A DNA stretch of 64,000 nt from Gemmatimonadota bacterium (GCA_022563405.1 JADFNK010000001.1:33980-97979); one strand, 5' to 3'; positions 55,409-63,824 are shown, counted from the first letter of the stretch. Numbers and translations: made by a program. Notes: generated by a model not told the origin, from the sequence alone.

Positions 55409-56506
55409 ATGGCAGAGGGTTTCCTCAGTTCTGAGGAGTACGACGAAAAAGCTCATCAGCTCTACAACAGTGGGGATTACGAAGGGGCCCTCGAGACGCT
55501 CAAAGAGGGCCTCTCGATTTATCCCAACGCAGTTGAACTCTGCGTGGGGATGGGCTACGCACGTCTCGCCCGGGAGGAGTATGCATGGGCGCGCAGGGCG
55601 TTCGACCGTGCGCTCGTTCTTGATCAAGGGCATGAGGACGCCCTGGTCGGGTTAGGCGAGACACTGCTCCGCTTCGGGGAGCGTGACGCCGCGCTCGCAC
55701 TGTTCGAGCGAGTCGCCGCGCTGGGGTTCGAGGACGACGTGGAGCTGATGCTGACGGTGGGGCGGGCGCTTTATCGCGAAAGCCTTTACGCCGAAAGCCG
55801 GGATGTGTTCGCCAAGGCCGCCGCCGCCCGTCCCGACAGTGCGGAGGTCGCGGCCTCGCTTGGCTACGCACTCCATCGGCTTGGCGAGGAGGTAGGGGCC
55901 GGGCGTCAGATCCGGAGGTCCCTCCGCCTCGATCCCGATCTCCATGAAGCCAGAATCTATCTCGGCCATCTCTTGTATGATCGCGGAGACTGGGAGGGAG
56001 CACTCCGCGAGTTCGAACGTGTCCCGCCGCTCGATCACTGGGACGCGTTGGCGGTGTGGCGTCTCGTCGAGCTAAAACGAGCGCTCTGGCAGGTGGAAGA
56101 CGGGGACCTGAGGATCAAGCCCTGGCAAAAGCGCTTGGACGAGCTCGAGGCGCTCCATGATCCCATCGACCGTTTACTCGCTGAAGTCGAAGCACAGGTC
56201 AACGGTGGTGAACGATCGCTTGTCGACCCGAGTCAGCTCGAACTCTTCGAGCGGGGTGAACGAAAAGGCGCCACGGAGTCGCATGAGGTCCGAATTGGCG
56301 ATGGGCACCTGTTCCGCGGAACATGGCAAGGTATCGTGCGGCAGATGAGAGATCAGGCCGGATTTTCACACGAGTCTCTATCCCAGTACATGAGACGGCT
56401 GGCGGAGCGTTGGCACGAACAGCTCGGCGTGGAGATTCCCTTTGCCGATCCCGAGACCTTCCTCGAGGCTGCCATTCGTGCCGGCGTGGTGTATCTCGAA
56501 GACTAG
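55409..56506 (+). CDS. TPR-repeat protein
   Basis: 365 aa. About 6 TPR-like units, then a non-TPR C-terminal ~120 aa. Confidence 0.8.
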   Translation: MAEGFLSSEEYDEKAHQLYNSGDYEGALETLKEGLSIYPNAVELCVGMGYARLAREEYAWARRAFDRALVLDQGHEDALVGLGETLLRFGERDAALALFERVAALGFEDDVELMLTVGRALYRESLYAESRDVFAKAAAARPDSAEVAASLGYALHRLGEEVGAGRQIRRSLRLDPDLHEARIYLGHLLYDRGDWEGALREFERVPPLDHWDALAVWRLVELKRALWQVEDGDLRIKPWQKRLDELEALHDPIDRLLAEVEAQVNGGERSLVDPSQLELFERGERKGATESHEVRIGDGHLFRGTWQGIVRQMRDQAGFSHESLSQYMRRLAERWHEQLGVEIPFADPETFLEAAIRAGVVYLED

Positions 56507-56531
56507 GACTCCTTTCAACAGCTTTCTGACC

Positions 56532-57491
56532 ATGCCACAGTCCGGAGATGTTCTTGAGCGTTTCATCAAGGCGCTCGTACTGGAGATCACGTCTACCCGT
56601 CCCGAGTACCTGACCACTCCGTTCACGGTCGCGGAGATCTACCAGGACCTCGTTCCTTACCGATCCCACCGGGCTTTGATCGGGGTCGAGATGAACGGGG
56701 ACTACGAGGAAGCACTCTTGCAGATGCTCTCTGGCGAGGGCGACTGCCTCCTCCTCGACTCTGCGGTTGCGCGCCAGGAGATGCAGGACGAACTCGCCAG
56801 CTCGAATCCAAACACTGGGCTGTTCCATGATTTTGCGGCGGTGGACGTCCGTTTACATCCCGGGCGGGTGCCCCTGGACGCGGGCCGCGGATCCGCAACG
56901 GGACACGGCGAGGCTTCAGAAGCGGACACCACCGATCGGCAGATGGCCCCGACGAGGGGAGCGGACGTCGAGTTGGAGGTCGAGAGGGAGTTAGAGGCAG
57001 AGAGAGAGTTAGAGGTTGAGCGGGAGTTGGAGGCAGAGAGAGAGTTAGAGGCTGAGCGGGAGTCGCAGGCTGAGACGGAGCAGAACACCCCAGTGGAAAT
57101 CGCCCCAAGAGCAGCCGAAGTGGGGGGCACGGGGCCAGCCGATCCGGCGACGGTGCCCCCGGACGGAGGCGATCCGGTGGAGCTCTTGAGGGCCGAACCC
57201 GGAGCGTCCGGCGAGGACGGCGTGGTGGGTCACATTGAGACGGCTTCTGCGCCGCCGCCGACCTCGTCTGAAGAGGCGGCACGTGACCGCAGGGTTCCGA
57301 CGGACGGCCAGCCCGGTGATGTCTTGATGGTGTGTCACTGGTGCCGTGAGACCCTTCCGGTGCGCGATTCTGTCCATTTCTGCCCGTTCTGTGGCAGCGA
57401 CCTTCGCCCGTCTCCGTGTCGCGAGTGTGGCGAGGCGATGGAGGCCCGGTGGCATTTCTGCGTCTCCTGTGGGGCCGATGTACGCGGTTAG
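56532..57491 (+). CDS. Hypothetical protein with ELE[AV]ER repeats and a C-terminal double zinc ribbon
   Basis: Internal ATG (MPQSGDVLERF...) of ORF 56442..57491. CHWC...CPFCG...CRECG...CVSCG gives 4 CxxC pairs. Confidence 0.62.
   Translation: MPQSGDVLERFIKALVLEITSTRPEYLTTPFTVAEIYQDLVPYRSHRALIGVEMNGDYEEALLQMLSGEGDCLLLDSAVARQEMQDELASSNPNTGLFHDFAAVDVRLHPGRVPLDAGRGSATGHGEASEADTTDRQMAPTRGADVELEVERELEAERELEVERELEAERELEAERESQAETEQNTPVEIAPRAAEVGGTGPADPATVPPDGGDPVELLRAEPGASGEDGVVGHIETASAPPPTSSEEAARDRRVPTDGQPGDVLMVCHWCRETLPVRDSVHFCPFCGSDLRPSPCRECGEAMEARWHFCVSCGADVRG
56970..57077 (+). repeat. 6 x 18-bp in-frame tandem repeat (ELEVER/ELEAER units)
   Basis: GAGTT(R)GAGG(N)(N)GAG(M)G(R) units read directly. 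The last unit is degenerate (ESQAET). Confidence 0.85.
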
Positions 57492-57936
57492 GAGCCTAGG
57501 GGCTCTCGCCTGTCTGGCCGTCGTAGGATGCGGGATCGAGACCAAGACGCGCCTCGAGGTAAGCGGGGTGGACAGCACGGATCTACACGCAGACATCGCC
57601 GCCGTTGCTCAGGTCATTCGGCTTTCTGGCGGCCGCGACGTTGAGCATGTGGTCCCGCCCCACCTGGAGATCGACCTCGGGGAGTGGGTCCAGTTCGTAT
57701 CCCTGGACCGCCGTGTGCACACGGTGTCCTTCGCGCCCGACTCTCTTTCGCCGGAGGCCCTGGTCTACCTGATCGACACCGGCCAGCTCGAGGGCCCACC
57801 ACTTCTCGTTCTCGGAAGTCGATTCCTCGTCGATTTTCGAGAGGCGCCCCCAGGTCGGTACGTTTTTTCGAGCACGAGCCATGGCGACCCTGTCTTTGGC
57901 AGCATTACCGTGCGGGAGATCTCGGCGAATCCGTAA
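57478..57936 (+). CDS. Hypothetical lipoprotein (small beta-rich, cupredoxin-like impression only)
   Basis: Internal ATG (MYAVRSLGALACLAVVGCG...) of ORF 57346..57936. Lipobox VVGC. Overlaps the previous stop by 14 nt. Confidence 0.55.
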   Translation: MYAVRSLGALACLAVVGCGIETKTRLEVSGVDSTDLHADIAAVAQVIRLSGGRDVEHVVPPHLEIDLGEWVQFVSLDRRVHTVSFAPDSLSPEALVYLIDTGQLEGPPLLVLGSRFLVDFREAPPGRYVFSSTSHGDPVFGSITVREISANP

Positions 57937-59253: not shown

Positions 59254-59448
59254 CTAGACCTTGCCCCGGCGCTGACGGCGTCGTTCACGGCGAATGGCCG
59301 CCTCACGTTTCCTCTTCCGCTGGGCGCTCGGCTTTTCGTAAAAGCGACGCTTCCGGAGTTCGGAATAGAGACCCGACCGCTGCACCTTACGCTTGAACCG
59401 GCGAAGGGCCCGTTCGAGGCTTTCGTTGTCCTGAATAGTTACTTCCAA
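59254..59448 (-). CDS. rpsU: 30S ribosomal protein S21
   Basis: 64 aa. [31 protein letters not shown]. Confidence 0.93.
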
Positions 59449-59538
59449 AAGATCACCACTCCCTGCGGTAGGTCGAATCCAAAAAGATAACCGATCGAAT
59501 GTCCGACCAGGGAGAAAAAAATAGTGGCTACGGCCGGA

Positions 59539-60237
59539 TCAGGGAAGTCTTCGTTCACGGTGGAGGGTGTGGCTGTACAGCATGTACTCCTCCGTATGGG
59601 CCAGGAAGTCCTCGACCCACACTTCGAACGGCGGCATGGGAATACGTGCCTCGATGTACTCGATGACCAGCATCCCCAGCTGCAATCGATCCTTGGCACC
59701 GAAGTCTACCCGTTGGCCCTCCAGAATCGAGGCGACGGCGGCCTCGAAGCATTCAGGGTCAACGAGAGTGATGAAATGGCACACCTGATCAAGCCGATAG
59801 GATTGGTAGAGAGATCGGAGTTGGGCCGTGTCCGACATCCCGTCGGAGGCATCCAGGTGTCCTTCGGCGGAGGCTGAGAGCTCCTCCGAATTCTTCAGCA
59901 GCAACTTCCTGAACCAACGTCGGGTCTTGGGAGACTGCCGGGCCTCGTCTCCTCGCCTCGTGTGCATGGCCGAGGAGAGCAACGCTCGGAAAAGCGGCCG
60001 CCCCAGTCCGCGCGCCTTATGATCAATCTCCGCTTCAGACGCTTCGATGAAGATATCGGCGGTCCGAACCTCGTCTGATTCTCCGTCGCTGTCCTGAGGA
60101 CGGAACGTGACGTGCCCGTGCCACTGGCCATCCCGACCGACGAAGGTCACGAGAAAACAAGACCAGGTTTCCTGTTCCCAGTCCAGAAATCCGAGCGATC
60201 GCCGGCGGGATCGGTCGATGAGAGCGTGTTCCGTCAA
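59539..60237 (-). CDS. Hypothetical two-domain protein (N-domain + C-domain of a locally repeated family)
   Basis: 232 aa. N-domain: LVTFVGRDGQWHGHVTF...VRTADIFIEASEAEIDHKARGLGRPLFRALLSS. C-domain: LRSLYQSYRLDQVCHFITLVDPE...IPMPPFEVWVEDF. Confidence 0.6.
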   Translation of the reverse strand: MTEHALIDRSRRRSLGFLDWEQETWSCFLVTFVGRDGQWHGHVTFRPQDSDGESDEVRTADIFIEASEAEIDHKARGLGRPLFRALLSSAMHTRRGDEARQSPKTRRWFRKLLLKNSEELSASAEGHLDASDGMSDTAQLRSLYQSYRLDQVCHFITLVDPECFEAAVASILEGQRVDFGAKDRLQLGMLVIEYIEARIPMPPFEVWVEDFLAHTEEYMLYSHTLHRERRLP

Positions 60238-60483
60238 GTCGCCGGTTGAGTAGAGGGTGAGGGATGAAACCTAGAATGCTACCGTGCCGTGGCGTCGGCA
60301 AGCAACCATGAGACCGTGGTAGGCGGAGCCGGTGGGCGTCGGTAGCGTCCCGGTAGGACACCACCTACAGGTGTCTTGCCATAACCGTAAACATATTGTT
60401 ATCGTGGATCAACCAGGACTGGGGAAGACTAGCATTACCGCATTACAAAGGCCTTTTGCGGAGGCTTGCGACGCAGGAACGTA

Positions 60484-60506
60484 CCGGCAGGAATGCCGGA
60501 TTTTTT
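60484..60506 (+). terminator. Short hairpin + U-run inside the 5' leader of the 60595 gene (attenuator or terminator candidate)
   Basis: CCGGCA-GGAA-TGCCGG followed by A-TTTTTT. Only a 6-bp stem. Confidence 0.3.
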
Positions 60507-60594
60507 ACCTGGATACTCTCGGGGGACAGCTTCAGAGGCCCGCCGATACAGACATCGACCACTCGTTCGGACCGTTTCGGACGTAAGGAGAGAC

Positions 60595-61503
60595 ATGGAG
60601 GGGACGACTTTCTCACCGCACTCCGCCGCTCGGCCCGAAGCCATGGCCGATGTACCCGGTGTCTGTGAGCTTCCCCTGACGAGGGCCGTGGTCCACTACC
60701 GCGATCTTCACGAGGTCGATTCGCCCGGCGGGCGGATCCAGGACATCGGACTCGCCCTCGTGCTCGAGGGCCGCTTTGCTTCATCCGCGGAAGCGTTGGA
60801 TCTGGGGAGCTCCACCGTGAAGCTTCTGGATTTGAGTTCGGAATTGGTCGTGCTCGACTGGGTCTATGAGCCGACACTGAAGCACATCAATCGTCTGCTG
60901 ACCGAAAGAGCCCGGGGGGCTGAGGATGTGGACGCTGCTGGACGGCTCGGCGCCTACTCGTTCCAGATGGCCTTGAGCTTGCTCGGCCGGCTCGGGTACG
61001 GGCCGCTCACCCGCCCCACGTTTCTCAGGATTGGATTCCGGGACATATGCCGGGACTTGGATTTTCACGAGGGTACCTCAGTGAGGATAGTCCTCGGCGA
61101 GCATCGCGTTGCACGTGCACACCTCGATTATGACTCGAACTCCTTGGTGTTCAGTACGCCCTCGCCAGAGCCGGACGCATCACTCGAAGCCGCCGTACTC
61201 GAGGTTTTCCCTCGCAGTGACGTCATGCGTATCAGCGAGGCCCACAGCGGTGGGTCTGTGTGTTACCAGGTCCGGCTCCTGTTCCCGGCCAGTTTGGCCG
61301 AGGCCCGTGGGGAGCTCCTTACGATCAGGCGAGGCCTTGGGGCATTGTTGGCCCGCTTCGAGCCGGAGCGCTTCAAGGGGATCGAGCAACATCTCACCAC
61401 CTTCGGATCGCGAGACACACTCTCGCAACTCCGCGTCCGGGAGCGGCGAACCAAGACCGAGGCGCTACAGACCCGTCACGCCGCCAGCGACACCGTCCAC
61501 TAG
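60595..61503 (+). CDS. Hypothetical protein
   Basis: Internal ATG of ORF 60466..61503, preceded by TAAGGAGAGAC. 302 aa. No family recognised. Confidence 0.6.
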   Translation: MEGTTFSPHSAARPEAMADVPGVCELPLTRAVVHYRDLHEVDSPGGRIQDIGLALVLEGRFASSAEALDLGSSTVKLLDLSSELVVLDWVYEPTLKHINRLLTERARGAEDVDAAGRLGAYSFQMALSLLGRLGYGPLTRPTFLRIGFRDICRDLDFHEGTSVRIVLGEHRVARAHLDYDSNSLVFSTPSPEPDASLEAAVLEVFPRSDVMRISEAHSGGSVCYQVRLLFPASLAEARGELLTIRRGLGALLARFEPERFKGIEQHLTTFGSRDTLSQLRVRERRTKTEALQTRHAASDTVH

Positions 61504-61756
61504 CAACTAGCACCCGCCATGACCGTCGATGCGGAGTTGGGCAGGGTGGGGGGGCCGGTGGGGCCGCCGGTTGATCGGCTAGACCACGAGGGTTCGCCAC
61601 GCCATTCGGCGGCCTTGAAGGGACGCTACGAGGAGTATTGTCGGCAGCAGGTATTCCTTCCTCCTGGAGATCATCCCACGTGAGGCGGTGAGGCCGCTTT
61701 ACCGGCGCGCAAGGACTTGGGCGACCGAGAGGGGGGTCCACGAATCCAAAGATCCG

Positions 61757-62133
61757 ATGTCGACTCTGCGGCTCTTCTGTCGTGAGGTCCTACCGTTGCC
61801 ACCGTTTGAAGTCTGGCTCATGGACTATGAAACGCATCGCCTGACCCACGTGAGCACGGGACTAGGATTGTTGCCTGTGCCCGAACCGATGGAGCCGATC
61901 GCGGTCGAGTTCAGGCGATTGGAACACGAGGCGGAGCCGTGGCGCGGAACGCTCGAAGTCTACGAGGCGGGGATGCCTGGAGGGGGCTCATTCGATTCCA
62001 GCGTGACGGCAAGGAGGGCCAGTTCCGCACTGGCGAGATCTTCCGTGAAGACGACCTCCAAGACCTTAGAGACCGCTTTATTTCCTTTACTGTGCCTACC
62101 CTGAGGGCCTTTCTGCGATCCACCCTCCCGTAA
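61757..62133 (+). pseudogene. Paralog of the 59539..60237 N-domain, split over two frames at a G5 run
   Basis: Frame A (61757..) gives MSTLRLFCREVLPLPPFEVWL...AVEFRRLEHEAEPWRGTLEVYEAGMPGG. Frame B (to 62133) gives LIRFQRDGKEGQFRTGEIFREDDLQDLRDRF...PTLRAFLRS. Both halves align to consecutive parts of the 232-aa protein. The switch is at GGGGG 61982-61986. Confidence 0.5.
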
Positions 62134-62320
62134 CCCCGGTTTTTTGCAAAAAACGCTCTCGGAGAAAGCAGGGTTTTTTGCGGAATTGGTTCCCGTAAGT
62201 TCCCATCGCAGTTGCATTTCACTCCTTCGAACACCTGAACTATGGGCCGCTTCGGGGGTCGAGGAACAATTGATTTCGAGCCAAATCGGTAATTTATAAG
62301 TAGTTGTTGTACAAGGAGTT

Positions 62321-62332
62321 ACGAAATTTCGT
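62321..62332. promoter_or_regulatory. Perfect palindrome ACGAAATTTCGT within an array of TTTCG-containing motifs upstream of the RHH-like gene
   Basis: Related copies: CAATTTCGA (~62344), TTTCGAAATTC (~62425), CATTTCGTG (~62463), GTTTTCGAG (~62472). Confidence 0.4.
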
Positions 62333-62504
62333 TGGGCACACGACAATTTCGATCGCAGGCTTGCGCACGTCGCAAAGGATCTGTACTATGGGTTCGCCTC
62401 GACGTTGTTGCTTTTCCATGACACTTTCGAAATTCACGATGGTAACGTCGATCCTATCGGGTCATTTCGTGAGTTTTCGAGCCACCGAAAACCTGGGGAG
62501 AAGT

Positions 62505-62714
62505 GTGTCCATGTGGGAGACCCGATCTGTTCAAATCACAGTGTTACTTCCCCATGATATTGCAGAACAAGCTGAAGAAGTGCAGAAGACGGATCCTGAG
62601 TTCTTGAGCCGGGTCGTGCTCTACGGTCTCACTCGCCGATCCATTTATCACCAGTTGCGCGACCGCAATCGGGACCAAGGTTCAGTCGATTACTCCCCCC
62701 CCCCTGCCATGTAA
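62505..62714 (+). CDS. Small ribbon-helix-helix-like DNA-binding protein (tentative)
   Basis: GTG 62505 or ATG 62511, preceded by GGGGAG. SVQITVLLPHDIAEQAEEVQK..FLSRVVLYGLTRR fits a strand-helix-helix pattern. The upstream part of ORF 62304.. is AT-rich leader. Confidence 0.5.
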   Translation: MSMWETRSVQITVLLPHDIAEQAEEVQKTDPEFLSRVVLYGLTRRSIYHQLRDRNRDQGSVDYSPPPAM

Positions 62715-62822
62715 GGGCTTGACTCTCTCGGCACCCCACTAAAAACTAAGGGTAAGTAGGGCAGGCACTTGCACGTCGAAGGCCGGCGTGCCGCGTGCGC
62801 GTGGACCGTGCTGAGAGGATGT

Positions 62823-63194
62823 ATGAGCGACGCCGGGCCGGAAGAATCCCCAGAAGGAAACCGTGATAGAGCGGAGCGCGTACTCCGGGCGAAGTACCTG
62901 GACTACTGCTCCTCTCAAATCGCTGGCCATCTAGTCCTGCTATCGCCGGACGAGATCTACGTCCTTGCTCAGGAAGCGCATCGTGCGGGTGGCGGGGAGA
63001 GTGAGCCCTCCTACGAACAGATGGTGCGTTCGGCCACCGAAGGTGTCGCTCAGCGCCTCACACTCCCCACGTTCGAGCAATGGGCTGAGGAATACGAGCG
63101 GGATCCGGCTCGATATGACGAGCAGCTCCTCGGTCTCTGGGAAAGCGAACTGGAGGAAGCGCCCGGCCCTGAGGAGGGTCCAAGCCCCACCTGA
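62823..63194 (+). CDS. Hypothetical acidic protein = stand-alone C-domain of the local family
   Basis: Internal ATG (MSDAGPEE...) of ORF 62769..63194. LRAKYLDYCSSQIAGHLVLLSPDE...LTLPTFEQWAEEY aligns with LRSLYQSYRLDQVCHFITLVDPE...IPMPPFEVWVEDF. Confidence 0.55.
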   Translation: MSDAGPEESPEGNRDRAERVLRAKYLDYCSSQIAGHLVLLSPDEIYVLAQEAHRAGGGESEPSYEQMVRSATEGVAQRLTLPTFEQWAEEYERDPARYDEQLLGLWESELEEAPGPEEGPSPT

Positions 63195-63219: not shown

Positions 63220-63657
63220 CTAGAACGGCAAGTCGTCGTCCGGCTCAGAGATGGGCGATGCGGGGGACGATACCGGGCTGGAATCGCTCTGAAAATCTCC
63301 GCCGCGGCCGCCTCCGTCTCCACCGCCGGTCGACCCGAGCATGACCATCTCGAGGACGATGATATCGGTCCAGTACTTTTTCTGGCCATCGCTCTCCGAC
63401 TCGGAGTATTCTATGCGCCCTTCGATGTAGAGCCGGTCACCCTTCTTGACCCATTGATCGACGATGTCGACGAGGCGGCCGAAGAACGTCAAGCGGTGCC
63501 ACTCGGTCTTCTCCTTCTGCTGCCCCGAGCCGTCCTTCCACTGGCGGCTGGTTGCCAGAGACACTTTCGCTACTCGGGTACCCGAGGAGGTGGCTCGGAT
63601 GTCAGGCTCGCTTCCCACGTTTCCGATGAGCATGACCTTGTTGAGGGACCGGCTCAT
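63220..63657 (-). CDS. ssb: Single-stranded DNA-binding protein
   Basis: Internal ATG (MSRSLNKVMLIGNVGSEPDIR...) of ORF 63220..63729. OB-fold motifs (TEWHRLTFFGR), a Gly-rich linker, and the acidic tail DDDLPF. Confidence 0.95.
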   Translation of the reverse strand: MSRSLNKVMLIGNVGSEPDIRATSSGTRVAKVSLATSRQWKDGSGQQKEKTEWHRLTFFGRLVDIVDQWVKKGDRLYIEGRIEYSESESDGQKKYWTDIIVLEMVMLGSTGGGDGGGRGGDFQSDSSPVSSPASPISEPDDDLPF

Positions 63658-63824
63658 TATCGCGCACTCCTTGGAGAATTGATGCAGGGTCACGTGCCAT
63701 TTGGGCCGTGAGGCGCCACAAGGTACCAAGGGCTCCGAGCGGGCGCTATGCTACGCTACGCTTTTGTTCGATATGCCTCGCCGGGGCGCCCTCCAACGCC
63801 GGATCTGGCGGAGCCTAGCATCGG

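What the first reader, a model, noticed from the sequence alone, without database searches (positions are those of the whole stretch)
59539..63194. Cluster of hypothetical genes where two unrecognised domains are fused in one protein and split across two neighbours
The 232-aa protein (59539..60237, minus strand) has an N-domain (LVTFVGRDGQWHGHVTF...VRTADIFIEASEAEIDHKARGLGRPLFRALLSS) and a C-domain (LRSLYQSYRLDQVCHFITLVDPE...IPMPPFEVWVEDF). The N-domain recurs in the 61757..62133 gene (AVEFRRLEHEAEPWRGTLEV...FRTGEIFREDDLQDLRDRF..PTLRAFLRS). That gene curiously begins with the C-domain's terminal motif (LPLPPFEVWLMDY). The C-domain recurs alone in 62823..63194 (LRAKYLDYCSSQIAGHLVLLSPDE...LTLPTFEQWAEEY). 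So there are three copies of the [LM]P[PT]FE[VQ]W motif within 3.7 kb, in fused and split forms. This Rosetta-stone-type arrangement implies the two domains work together. A 302-aa orphan and an RHH-like gene are interleaved. I could not match any of these to a family by eye. The YxxYxxxQ[IV]...L[LV]xP[DE] stretch vaguely resembles an HTH, but that is weak.
Basis: seen in the sequence. Interest (0 to 1): 0.7.

Follow-up and report, generated by a model that had tools for sequence, protein, structure and literature searches.

The report
Orphan two-domain paralogues, permuted order
Three neighbouring genes in a Gemmatimonadota genome share two protein domains that match no known family; the apparent fused-versus-split pattern comes from two frameshifts in the middle gene, which is normally a fusion of the same two domains in the opposite order.

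Summary
The repeated similarity is real. The 7-residue motif occurs exactly three times in the window (2e-4 expected). Profile comparisons link the helical "C" domain of all three genes, and the beta-rich "N" domain of two of them, at 97-98% probability.

The "split" reading is wrong. Gene 61757..62133 is not a whole number of codons. It is part of a 204-aa ORF (61519..62133) broken in this window by a 1-bp insertion (~61658) and a 1-bp deletion (~61963). That ORF is intact in 98.7%-identical contigs and in 60 other loci. Its order is C then N, so the architectures are N-C (232 aa), C-N (204 aa) and C alone (123 aa). N never occurs alone.

The genes ssb | C-only, RHH-like, C-N, 302-aa | N-C, rpsU form a syntenic block in 72-80 of 80 related loci. 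The C-N gene has been lost in 14 of 74 loci and is frameshifted in 2 loci and in this window.

No protein matches Pfam, NCBIfam, PADLOC, PHROGs or PDB sequences. A confident AlphaFold model (pLDDT 85) has no significant Foldseek match. The C domain has only 197 representatives among 1.84 billion proteins.

Function is unknown. My working model is a set of acidic, soluble protein-protein scaffolds, and this is inferred.

The parts
59539..60237 (-). p232: 232-aa protein with a TTG start. Architecture is N domain (residues ~11-91, about 59965-60207), a ~45-residue linker, C domain (residues ~136-227, about 59557-59832), then an invariant C-terminal tail LY.HTLHR.GRLP.
   Evidence: ORF. 768 homologues, all unnamed and without Pfam domains. 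Alignment A1 has a mean column identity of 66%. In the AF2 model the N domain has pLDDT 71-90 and the C half is helical but low-confidence. Local HMMs hit N at residues 13-103 and C at 145-234 of the ORF.
60376..60405 (+). Promoter-like site TTGCCA-N18-(TG)TATCGT upstream of the 302-aa gene. It is the only conserved block in the divergent p232/302-aa intergenic region.
   Evidence: Consensus scan. Conserved block cTTGC...GTAAACA.AT.GTTATCGT in the 80-locus alignment.
60484..60499 (+). GC hairpin followed by ATTTTTT inside the ~185-nt leader of the 302-aa gene. It is terminator- or attenuator-like.
   Evidence: The CCGG.TTT.T block is partly conserved. Not followed further.
60595..61503 (+). 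302-aa orphan protein. It has many invariant polar residues, including RIGFRDICRDLDLHEGTS and DLGS..VK.LDLS. It ends 15 nt before the C-N gene.
   Evidence: Present in 80 of 80 loci. Alignment A9. 1044 homologues of 295-303 aa, all hypothetical, none with Pfam domains. No PDB or Pfam hit. No N or C domain.
61519..62133 (+). g2: the C-N paralogue, normally 204 aa. C domain is about 61597-61864 and N domain about 61898-62124. In this window it is broken by a 1-bp insertion (T, ~61658, CCT[T]CC) and a 1-bp deletion (C, ~61963, TAC[C]GAGG). It is either a pseudogene or an assembly error.
   Evidence: Three-frame translation. Reconstruction is 95% identical over 100% of its length to the intact 204-aa P0122. 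DNA alignment with L081/L082. Intact single ORF in 60 loci. AF2 model of P0122 has pLDDT 85.2.
62134..62510 (+). Conserved-length (~375 nt), low-GC (0.45-0.5) control region upstream of the RHH-like gene. Elements: palindrome TTTTTTGCAAAAAA at 62140-62153; block GGAACAATTGATTT at 62263-62276; inverted repeat TAAGT...ACTTA at 62297-62321; sigma-70-like promoter TTGCGC (62361-62366), N17, TACTAT (62384-62389); ~115-nt leader; GAGG ribosome-binding site.
   Evidence: Lengths and GC content. Alignment A6. The promoter pattern is present in 59 of 60 loci, with a spacer of exactly 17 nt in 58 of them, and the distances are fixed. The module is kept when g2 is deleted. No conserved ORF, no Rfam hit, no consensus RNA structure or covariation.
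62511..62714 (+). 67-aa RHH-like protein: MWETRSVQ(I/L).V.LP.DIA.QAEEVQ..DPEFLSRVVLYGLTRRSIY.
   Evidence: Present in 74 of 80 loci. Alignment A5 has 71% column identity. Only weak, in-register similarity to Arc: hhalign probability 6.6%, and Pfam Arc at E 0.062 in 1 of 17 members.
62823..63194 (+). g3: 123-aa protein with the C domain only (about 62871-63122) and an acidic tail. pI 4.3.
   Evidence: Present in 72 of 80 loci. Alignment A4. hhalign to both other C domains. Charge.
59254..59448 (-). rpsU (ribosomal protein S21), 90 nt downstream of p232 on the same strand. This is the conserved flank of the block.
   Evidence: Pfam Ribosomal_S21, E 1.5e-20. Adjacent in 79 of 80 loci.
63220..63729 (-). 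ssb, convergent with g3 and 25 nt away. This is the conserved flank of the block.
   Evidence: Pfam SSB, E 1e-30. Adjacent in 65 of 80 loci.

Best explanation
SHOWN.
- This is a vertically inherited block of five orphan genes specific to Gemmatimonadota (Longimicrobiales-type MAGs), lying between ssb and rpsU.
- Three of the genes are paralogues built from two new domains. One is a ~90-residue five-helix domain ('C'). Its invariant residues are L...Y..Y...Q on helix 1 and LP.P.F..W..D at the loop into helix 4. The other is a ~75-residue beta-meander plus two helices ('N'), with conserved W, W-[RH]-G and R-T-x-x-I-F-x-E.
- The architectures are N-C (p232), C-N (g2) and C alone (g3). This is a permutation of domain order, not a fused-versus-split pair.
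- g2 is the dispensable member. It is lost in 14 of 74 loci and frameshifted in two other loci and here. p232, the 302-aa protein, the RHH-like protein and g3 are retained.

INFERRED.
- C-N most plausibly arose from a tandem duplicate of an N-C gene (permutation by duplication), and C-only arose by truncation.
- All five products are soluble and acidic. Most residues invariant within N and C are aromatic or hydrophobic, with a few charged or polar ones (R-T and E in N; Q and D in C). This looks structural rather than catalytic.
- I therefore read p232, g2 and g3 as non-enzymatic scaffold or adaptor subunits. They would dock through the shared C domain onto a common partner or onto each other, and N would supply a second binding surface.
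- g3 (C only, net charge about -17) would act as a competitor or regulator of that docking.
- The 302-aa protein, rich in invariant D/H/E/C/R and ending 15 nt before g2, is the candidate catalytic or ligand-binding partner.
- The RHH-like protein probably controls its own rhh-g3 operon through the palindromes in the rigidly spaced ~375-bp upstream region.
- The cellular process is unknown. The only positional hints are the neighbours rpsU and ssb.
For: - Homology statistics.
- Frameshifts. The intact orthologue P0122 is 95% identical.
- Architecture counts N-C 80, C-N 60, C 76.
- Synteny in 72-80 of 80 loci from distinct GTDB species.
- Recurrent g2 loss or decay. Within-species comparison gives 7 nonsynonymous to 2 synonymous changes plus 2 indels in g2, against 0 to 4 in the neighbouring 302-aa gene.
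- The AF2 model of g2 has pLDDT 85.2, with two separately confident domains and pTM 0.49, so the domains are independently folded and flexibly linked.
- Orphan status.
- Narrow spread: 197 C-domain representatives among 1.84 billion proteins, all in the three architecture size classes. No relatives in IMG/VR.
- Acidic, with no transmembrane segment.
- The 15-nt gap between the 302-aa gene and g2.
- A conserved sigma-70-like promoter and fixed spacing upstream of rhh, retained when g2 is deleted.
Against: - No experiment or co-fold supports any physical interaction. AF2-multimer could not be run.
- The inter-domain orientation in the model is undefined.
- The RHH assignment is not statistically supported.
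- The catalytic role of the 302-aa protein rests only on its pattern of invariant residues. No structure was predicted for it.
- The two indels sit in short repeats (T to TT, CC to C) and could be assembly errors rather than pseudogenisation.
- Synteny within one phylum can persist without functional coupling.
- Terminator-like hairpins lie between p232 and rpsU, so co-transcription is not shown.
- The N-domain profile was never searched against the large databases.
Confidence: 0.55

Rival explanations
1. True Rosetta-stone arrangement: one N-C fusion protein, plus separate N-only and C-only proteins encoded by neighbours.
For: In the window as it stands, no intact ORF carries both domains at 61519..62133. 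ORF fragments carry part of C (61688..62104) and the end of N (61939..62133).
Against: - The quoted gene is 377 nt and joins two frames.
- A full C domain, starting at LKGRYEEYCRQQV, lies upstream in a third fragment.
- Contigs 98.7% identical, and 60 other loci, carry one intact C-N ORF.
- N-only ORFs number only 4, the count expected from the frameshifted copies in L003/L005.
Confidence: 0.04
2. The two indels in g2 are sequencing or assembly errors, and the organism has an intact, functional C-N gene.
For: - Both indels are single-base length changes in short runs (CCT[T]CC and TAC[C]GA).
- They compensate each other, so the start and stop codons remain in one frame.
- Some related long-read MAGs also show single frameshifts (L003).
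Against: - In the 3,051-nt comparison with L081, every other gene on that stretch remains a single uninterrupted ORF.
- g2 also has the highest substitution density, with a 7:2 nonsynonymous to synonymous ratio.
- g2 is independently deleted in 14 of 74 loci and broken in L003 and L005. Decay of this gene is a recurrent natural event.
Confidence: 0.4
3. The proteins are nucleic-acid-binding regulators. N would be a PUR/Whirly- or WGR-like single-strand or DNA-end binding module, C a helical DNA-binding (HTH-like) domain, and the system would act on DNA or RNA near ssb or on the ribosome.
For: - PUR-alpha repeats recur among the weak Foldseek hits for both models.
- A phage 'WGR domain' protein is a weak BFVD hit (E 0.12, probability 0.95).
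- Conserved aromatic and arginine residues lie on the beta strands.
- The neighbours are ssb and an RHH-like gene.
Against: - All fold matches have E of 0.016 or higher, with TM-scores of 0.56 or below (0.37 or below for the PUR/WGR hits named here).
- PDB sequence profiles give nothing even at E<=10.
- Both domains are acidic (N net -3 to -4; p232 C -10; g3 -11 to -17), which does not suit general nucleic-acid binding.
- The Y..Y...Q segment is one continuous helix, not an HTH.
Confidence: 0.12
4. The block is a mobile toxin-antitoxin or anti-phage defence island, with an RHH antitoxin plus toxin or effector genes.
For: A small RHH-like gene lies directly upstream of a small protein gene (rhh-g3) and has an operator-like palindrome. 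All the genes are orphans.
Against: - No PADLOC or PHROGs match and no relatives in IMG/VR.
- The chromosomal position between ssb and rpsU is the same in 65-79 of 80 species-level genomes, and protein identities track those of the housekeeping neighbours.
- The GC content of the coding parts is like the rest of the genome.
- No integrase, repeats or tRNA were seen at the borders in the ORF list.
Confidence: 0.03

Closest known systems
Ribbon-helix-helix (Arc/MetJ/CopG) repressors, for the 67-aa gene only
   Same: Size. The pattern is a short alternating beta strand (VQLxVRLP), helix (RDIAxQAEEVQ), turn, then helix (EFLSRVVLYGL). The alignment to Arc's QFNLRWPREV strand is in register. A conserved inverted repeat and palindrome lie upstream of its own conserved promoter.
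   Different: No significant score: Pfam Arc at E 0.062 in 1 of 17 members, hhalign 6.6% to Arc and 0.3% to CopG, and no PDB hit. The inverted repeat lies 40-65 nt upstream of the -35 element rather than over the promoter. The protein is slightly acidic.
COMMD proteins (helical HN domain plus beta3-alpha COMM domain, forming hetero-oligomers of paralogues)
   Same: g2 has the same gross layout: a ~90-residue helical domain followed by a domain of three long antiparallel strands plus C-terminal helices. Several paralogues occur per genome. The COMMD7/9/5/10 tetramer is the top-ranked PDB hit, aligned over 198 columns. My knowledge of COMMD architecture is from memory.
   Different: The match is not significant (E 0.38, probability 0.07, TM 0.15). 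There is no sequence similarity. COMMD proteins are eukaryotic. Here it is the helical domain, not the beta domain, that all paralogues share. p232 has the reverse domain order.
PUR repeat (Pur-alpha) and WGR domain: small beta-meander plus helix modules
   Same: The N domain has a strands-then-helix topology of similar size. Both appear repeatedly among weak Foldseek hits.
   Different: E values are 0.12-2. No sequence-profile signal. The conserved W-[RH]-G sits at the start of strand 3 and is not the WGR motif (compared from memory). The domain is acidic.
Domain-order (circular) permutation by tandem duplication, and Rosetta-stone fusions (general concepts; Marcotte/Enright 1999, from memory)
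   Same: Two homologous domains occur in the orders N-C and C-N in neighbouring paralogues. This is the expected product of duplicating an N-C gene in tandem and trimming the ends. The persistent fusion of N with C in both orders argues that they act together.
   Different: No N-C-N-C intermediate was found. There is no unfused N, so the classical Rosetta-stone inference does not apply.

Membership tests
Rosetta-stone (fused versus split) gene pair | The two domains exist as separate, intact genes in some genome or position and as a fusion elsewhere | tested here: not met
   The N domain occurs only fused: N-C 80, C-N 60. The 4 'N alone' ORFs match the count expected from broken C-N genes in L003/L005. 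The window's 'N gene' is a frameshift fragment.
Paralogous domain superfamily (C domain shared by p232, g2 and g3) | Statistically significant profile-profile similarity across the whole domain, with shared invariant residues | tested here: met
   hhalign 97.2-98.3%, E 4e-11 to 2.5e-14. Invariant L, Y, Y, P, W and near-invariant Q, P, F, D in the joint alignment A8.
Paralogous domain superfamily (N domain shared by p232 and g2) | Statistically significant profile-profile similarity | tested here: met
   hhalign 97.4-98.2%, E 9e-12 to 2.9e-14. The N-versus-C controls do not match.
Ribbon-helix-helix DNA-binding proteins | Match to an RHH family model (Pfam Arc, RHH_1, CopG and others) above threshold | tested here: not met
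   No Pfam hit for the window protein. Arc at E 0.062 in 1 of 17 orthologues. The PDB profile search found nothing relevant.
Ribbon-helix-helix DNA-binding proteins | N-terminal beta strand followed by two helices; dimer that binds a repeated operator | tested here: inconclusive
   Weak alignment to Arc, in register (probability 6.6%). Conserved palindromes upstream. No structure model was made and no binding data exist.
Known anti-phage defence or toxin-antitoxin systems | Protein match to a PADLOC model; variable or mobile genomic context | tested here: not met
   No PADLOC, PHROGs or IMG/VR hits. The position between ssb and rpsU is fixed.
COMMD-like (HN plus COMM) proteins | Significant fold match of both domains; COMM-domain-mediated dimer | tested here: not met
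   Foldseek E 0.38, probability 0.07, TM 0.15. Oligomeric state is not testable here.
PUR repeat or WGR domain (for the N domain) | Significant fold or profile match | tested here: not met
   Foldseek E 0.8-2 (PDB) and 0.12 (BFVD). No Pfam WGR or PurA hit at E<=1 in 50 members.
Actin-like ATPase or class I methyltransferase (for the 302-aa protein). Lead from memory: LDLGSG.VK and DLDLHEGTS resemble phosphate-binding or GxGxG motifs | Profile match to any ASKHA or methyltransferase family; matching fold | tested here: not met
   No Pfam hit in 22 members at E<=1, and no PDB sequence hit at E<=10.
Structured non-coding RNA in the 62134-62510 spacer | Rfam match, or a consensus structure with covariation | tested here: not met
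   No Rfam hit. RNAalifold predicted 0 pairs. The two palindromes show no more pairing or covariation than shuffles.

The most novel reading that the evidence does not exclude
The five orphan genes encode one previously undescribed, clade-specific cytoplasmic machine. It would have a new enzyme (the 302-aa protein, with an invariant D/C/D/D/H/E cluster) whose activity or targeting is set by interchangeable adaptor subunits built from two new folds in permuted order (p232, g2, g3). The RHH-like protein would regulate the whole through a helically phased ~375-bp nucleoprotein control region. Its fixed position beside rpsU and ssb would reflect a housekeeping role in ribosome or single-stranded-DNA metabolism peculiar to this lineage of Gemmatimonadota.
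Probability: 0.15. Interest if true: 0.7.

Novelty: categorically new. Interest (0 to 1): 0.45.

Why it matters
These are conserved families with no known relatives. p232 has 768 clusters at 90% identity, g2 has 573 and the 302-aa protein has 1044. None has a Pfam, NCBIfam, PDB or significant fold relative. They sit in a fixed chromosomal block in a poorly studied phylum that, in the 80 loci listed, is represented only by MAGs.

The block gives two new domain definitions and a clean natural example of domain-order permutation between adjacent paralogues. It also offers a dispensable paralogue (g2) that could be used to probe function.

"Categorically new" here means only that the block cannot be placed in any known family. 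It does not mean a new mechanism has been demonstrated.

For annotation, the result is a caution. The fused/split signal in this window is created by two 1-bp indels.

Tried and rejected
- Pfam, NCBIfam, PADLOC and PHROGs scans of all five proteins, and of 17-50 orthologues each, found nothing recurrent.
- PDB sequence-profile searches with the g2, RHH-like and 302-aa families found nothing.
- Foldseek of the p232 model found no significant match. This model is low-confidence outside the N domain.
- Foldseek of the high-confidence g2 model against PDB and BFVD gave no hit with E below 0.016. COMMD, PUR, WGR and PsbP-like resemblances are therefore kept as leads only.
- hhalign of the 302-aa family against the N and C domains showed no relationship.
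- An HTH reading of the Y..Y...Q stretch was rejected on the model.
- A viral origin was rejected.
- Programmed frameshifting in g2 was rejected, because near-identical strains lack both indels.
- A hidden small ORF in the 377-nt spacer was rejected.
- A structured RNA in that spacer found no support: Rfam, RNAalifold and covariation counts.
- I looked for a second sigma-70, ECF or sigma-54 promoter, or a minus-strand sRNA promoter, around the GGAACA and TAAGT blocks by eye. No convincing match was found.
- The same palindromes were sought elsewhere in the window and are unique to this spacer.
- Literature searches returned nothing relevant.

Full report
**1. What is in the sequence**

ORF listing and three-frame translation show these features:
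- a 232-aa ORF at 59539..60237(-), called p232 here;
- a 302-aa ORF at 60595..61503(+);
- a 67-aa ORF at 62511..62714(+);
- a 123-aa ORF at 62823..63194(+), called g3 here.

Pfam identifies the flanks. On the left are rpsU (S21, 59254..59448, minus strand), a thiolase, a TPR protein and a double-zinc-ribbon protein. On the right is ssb (63220..63729, minus strand).

Its quoted N-terminal half (AVEFRRLEHEAEPWRGTLEV) and C-terminal half (FRTGEIFREDDLQDLRDRF..PTLRAFLRS) lie in different frames. Upstream, in a third fragment starting at ATG 61519, lies LKGRYEEYCRQQV. This is the start of a full C domain.

Joining frame 0 (61519-61653), frame +1 (61655-61972) and frame 0 (61972-62133) gives a 204-aa protein with a complete C domain followed by the N domain.

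**2. The reconstruction is the real gene**

A profile of orthologues found 573 proteins, nearly all 189-223 aa long. One of them, P0122 (204 aa), is 95% identical to the reconstruction over its full length.

Two independent metagenome contigs that encode P0122 (L081, L082) match the window closely. L081 is 98.7% identical over 3,051 nt. Within this gene both contigs differ from the window by exactly two indels: an extra T in CCT[T]CC near 61658 and a missing C in TAC[C]GAGG near 61963.

In 60 of 80 related loci the gene is one intact ORF with C followed by N. The 'N-only gene that curiously begins with the C-terminal motif' is therefore a fragment of a frameshifted C-N fusion.

**3. Is the similarity more than chance? 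Yes**

The motif [LM]P[PT]FE[VQ]W occurs three times in 128,000 translated residues, against 2e-4 expected. BLASTP E-values between the three proteins are 3e-6 to 1e-4.

Profile-profile comparison of orthologue alignments (also for the N domain):

| Comparison | Probability | E-value |
|---|---|---|
| C domain, p232 vs g2 | 98.0% | 1.8e-13 |
| C domain, p232 vs g3 | 97.2% | 3.8e-11 |
| C domain, g2 vs g3 | 98.3% | 2.5e-14 |
| N domain, p232 vs g2 | 98.2% | 2.9e-14 |
| N vs C controls | 14% or less | - |

HMMs of the two domains find no further copies in the window. The 302-aa protein contains neither domain.

**4. Conservation and context**

p232 has 768 homologues, all unnamed and without Pfam domains. 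A scan of one genome per GTDB species found 136 genomes with it. The 80 best are all MAGs, nearly all labelled Gemmatimonadota or Longimicrobiales.

tblastn of the window's proteins onto these loci shows one syntenic block: ssb | g3, RHH-like, g2, 302-aa | p232, rpsU. Counts out of 80 loci:

| Gene | Loci with it |
|---|---|
| 302-aa protein | 80 |
| rpsU (S21) | 79 |
| RHH-like | 74 |
| g3 | 72 |
| g2 | 72 raw; 60 with an intact C-N ORF |
| ssb | 65 |

At the far end of the set, identities are about 50-60% for p232, 35-45% for g2, 50-55% for g3, 55-60% for the 302-aa protein and 65-70% for the RHH-like protein. SSB, a housekeeping neighbour, is about 60-65%. All are therefore under purifying selection and vertically inherited.

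Domain architectures over all loci are N-C 80, C-N 60 and C 76. The only 4 'N alone' ORFs match the count expected from the frameshifted g2 copies in L003 and L005.

g2 is the unstable member:
- It is absent from 14 of 74 loci that keep both neighbours. These loci span several depths of divergence.
- It is frameshifted in L003, L005 and this window.
- Against the near-identical L081, g2 has 7 nonsynonymous and 2 synonymous changes plus the two indels. The adjacent 302-aa gene has 0 nonsynonymous and 4 synonymous.

The numbers are small, but together with the recurrent losses I favour real decay over assembly error, at about 60:40.

**5. What are the domains?**

Nothing known matches them:
- Pfam, NCBIfam, PADLOC and PHROGs give no hit for any of the five proteins or their orthologues.
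- PDB sequence profiles give nothing.
- The AlphaFold2 model of p232 is confident only for the N domain.
- The model of the g2 orthologue P0122, built from 50 diverse sequences, has mean pLDDT 85.2 with both domains above 90. Its pTM is 0.49, which indicates two independently folded domains on a flexible linker.

In that model the C domain is five helices (27-51, 54-71, 79-90, 96-105, 107-115). The N domain is three long antiparallel strands (127-136, 139-150, 153-162), two short strands and two helices.

Foldseek finds no PDB match with E below 0.38, and no BFVD match below 0.016. The recurrent weak hits are a COMMD tetramer, PUR repeats, a phage 'WGR domain' protein and PsbP-like proteins. 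They are leads, not assignments.

A joint C-domain profile searched against 1.84 billion representative proteins finds only 197 proteins at E<=1e-3. They fall into the three length and position classes already seen. No relatives occur in IMG/VR. Literature searches found nothing.

**6. Properties that bear on mechanism**

- All five proteins lack hydrophobic segments and are acidic. p232 is about -9 to -11, g3 is -11 to -17, and the N domains are -3 to -4. This argues against general nucleic-acid binding and for protein-protein roles.
- The residues invariant across families are mostly aromatic or hydrophobic: L, Y, Y, P, F and W in C; W, W-x-G and F in N. A few charged or polar positions are also conserved (Q and D in C; the R-T and E of R-T-x-x-I-F-x-E in N). 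This pattern suggests fold cores rather than active sites.
- p232 is much more constrained than g2 (66% against 47% mean column identity). It also has an invariant C-terminal tail, LY.HTLHR.GRLP.
- The 302-aa protein has clusters of invariant polar residues (RIGFRDICRDLDLHEGTS; DLGS..VK.LDLS). It ends 15 nt before g2. It is the best candidate for a catalytic or ligand-binding partner.
- The 67-aa protein has an RHH-like pattern but only sub-threshold similarity to Arc.

**7. The working model, and what is inferred**

Shown:
- paralogy of the three genes;
- permuted domain order;
- synteny across the clade;
- orphan status of all five proteins;
- dispensability of g2;
- the frameshifts in this window.

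Inferred:
- C-N arose by tandem duplication of an N-C gene and trimming, and C-only arose by truncation.
- The three paralogues are scaffold or adaptor subunits that use the shared C domain to bind a common partner or each other. N would provide a second binding surface. The very acidic C-only g3 would act as a competitor or regulator.
- The 302-aa protein supplies the activity.
- The RHH-like protein autoregulates the rhh-g3 operon.

The biological process is unknown. Proximity to rpsU and ssb is the only hint, and terminator-like hairpins separate p232 from rpsU.

**8. Noticed on the way**

The 377-nt spacer between g2 and the RHH-like gene (62134-62510) is unusual. Its length is 364-386 nt in 49 of 60 loci, and its GC content is 0.45-0.5 against 0.62 for the genome. 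It has no conserved ORF.

It contains four conserved elements:
- the palindrome TTTTTTGCAAAAAA;
- the block GGAACA..TGGTTT;
- an inverted repeat TAAGT...ACTTA;
- a promoter, TTGCG.-N17-TA...T. The pattern is present in 59 of 60 loci, with a spacer of exactly 17 nt in 58 of them. It is followed by a 107-120-nt leader.

The -35 element lies 224-229 nt from the g2 stop codon in 46 of 59 loci. The whole module, with the same internal spacings, is retained where g2 is deleted.

There is no Rfam hit, no RNAalifold structure and no covariation above shuffles. It therefore looks like a phased DNA control region rather than an RNA gene, but this remains unresolved.

**9. Verdict**

The repeats and the two new domains are real. 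The fused/split layout is an artefact of two indels.

N and C probably do act together, but the evidence is fusion in both orders, not a Rosetta-stone split.

The families are unplaceable with current libraries and are restricted to one clade. Interest is moderate: this is a clean, conserved, uncharacterised module with an unusual domain permutation, but its function is not yet known.

Noticed in passing
window 62134-62510: Spacer between g2 and the RHH-like gene. Its length is conserved (~375 nt) and its GC content is low. It holds the palindrome TTTTTTGCAAAAAA (62140-62153), the block GGAACAATTGATTT (62263-62276), an inverted repeat TAAGT..ACTTA (62297-62321) and a strictly conserved TTGCGC-N17-TACTAT promoter (62361-62389). 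Spacings are fixed to within 1-2 nt across genomes whose proteins are only ~50% identical. No ORF, no Rfam hit and no RNA covariation.
   Followed up: partly
window 60376-60405 and 60484-60499: Conserved promoter-like site (TTGCCA-N18-TATCGT with an extended TG) for the 302-aa/g2 operon. A GC hairpin plus T-run lies inside its ~185-nt leader and could be an attenuator.
   Followed up: partly
window 60595-61503: The 302-aa orphan has clusters of invariant residues: RIGFRDICRDLDLHEGTS and DLGS..VK.LDLS.ELVVLDW. From memory, these superficially recall phosphate-binding or GxGxG motifs.
   Followed up: partly
loci L008, L011, L027, L036, L039, L045, L054, L056, L062, L063, L071, L072, L076, L077; also L003, L005: The C-N paralogue is deleted in 14 of 74 related loci, leaving only the ~375-nt spacer or a little more. 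It is frameshifted in two further loci. Loss of this gene is recurrent.
   Followed up: yes
window 56442-57491: 349-aa ORF with a run of (E-L-E-[VA]-E-R) repeats and a C-terminal double zinc ribbon (Pfam DZR, E 5.6e-8). It overlaps the next ORF (57346..57936) by ~146 nt as listed, and the same overlap is seen in relatives.
   Followed up: no
window 59454-59510 (minus strand): Two terminator-like hairpins lie between the p232 stop codon and the rpsU start. Despite their conserved adjacency, the two genes may therefore be separate transcription units.
   Followed up: no
window 24000-62000: GC skew is positive on the + strand from about 24 kb to 62 kb and flattens in the last 2 kb. The window ends too soon to tell whether this is a skew switch.
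   Followed up: no
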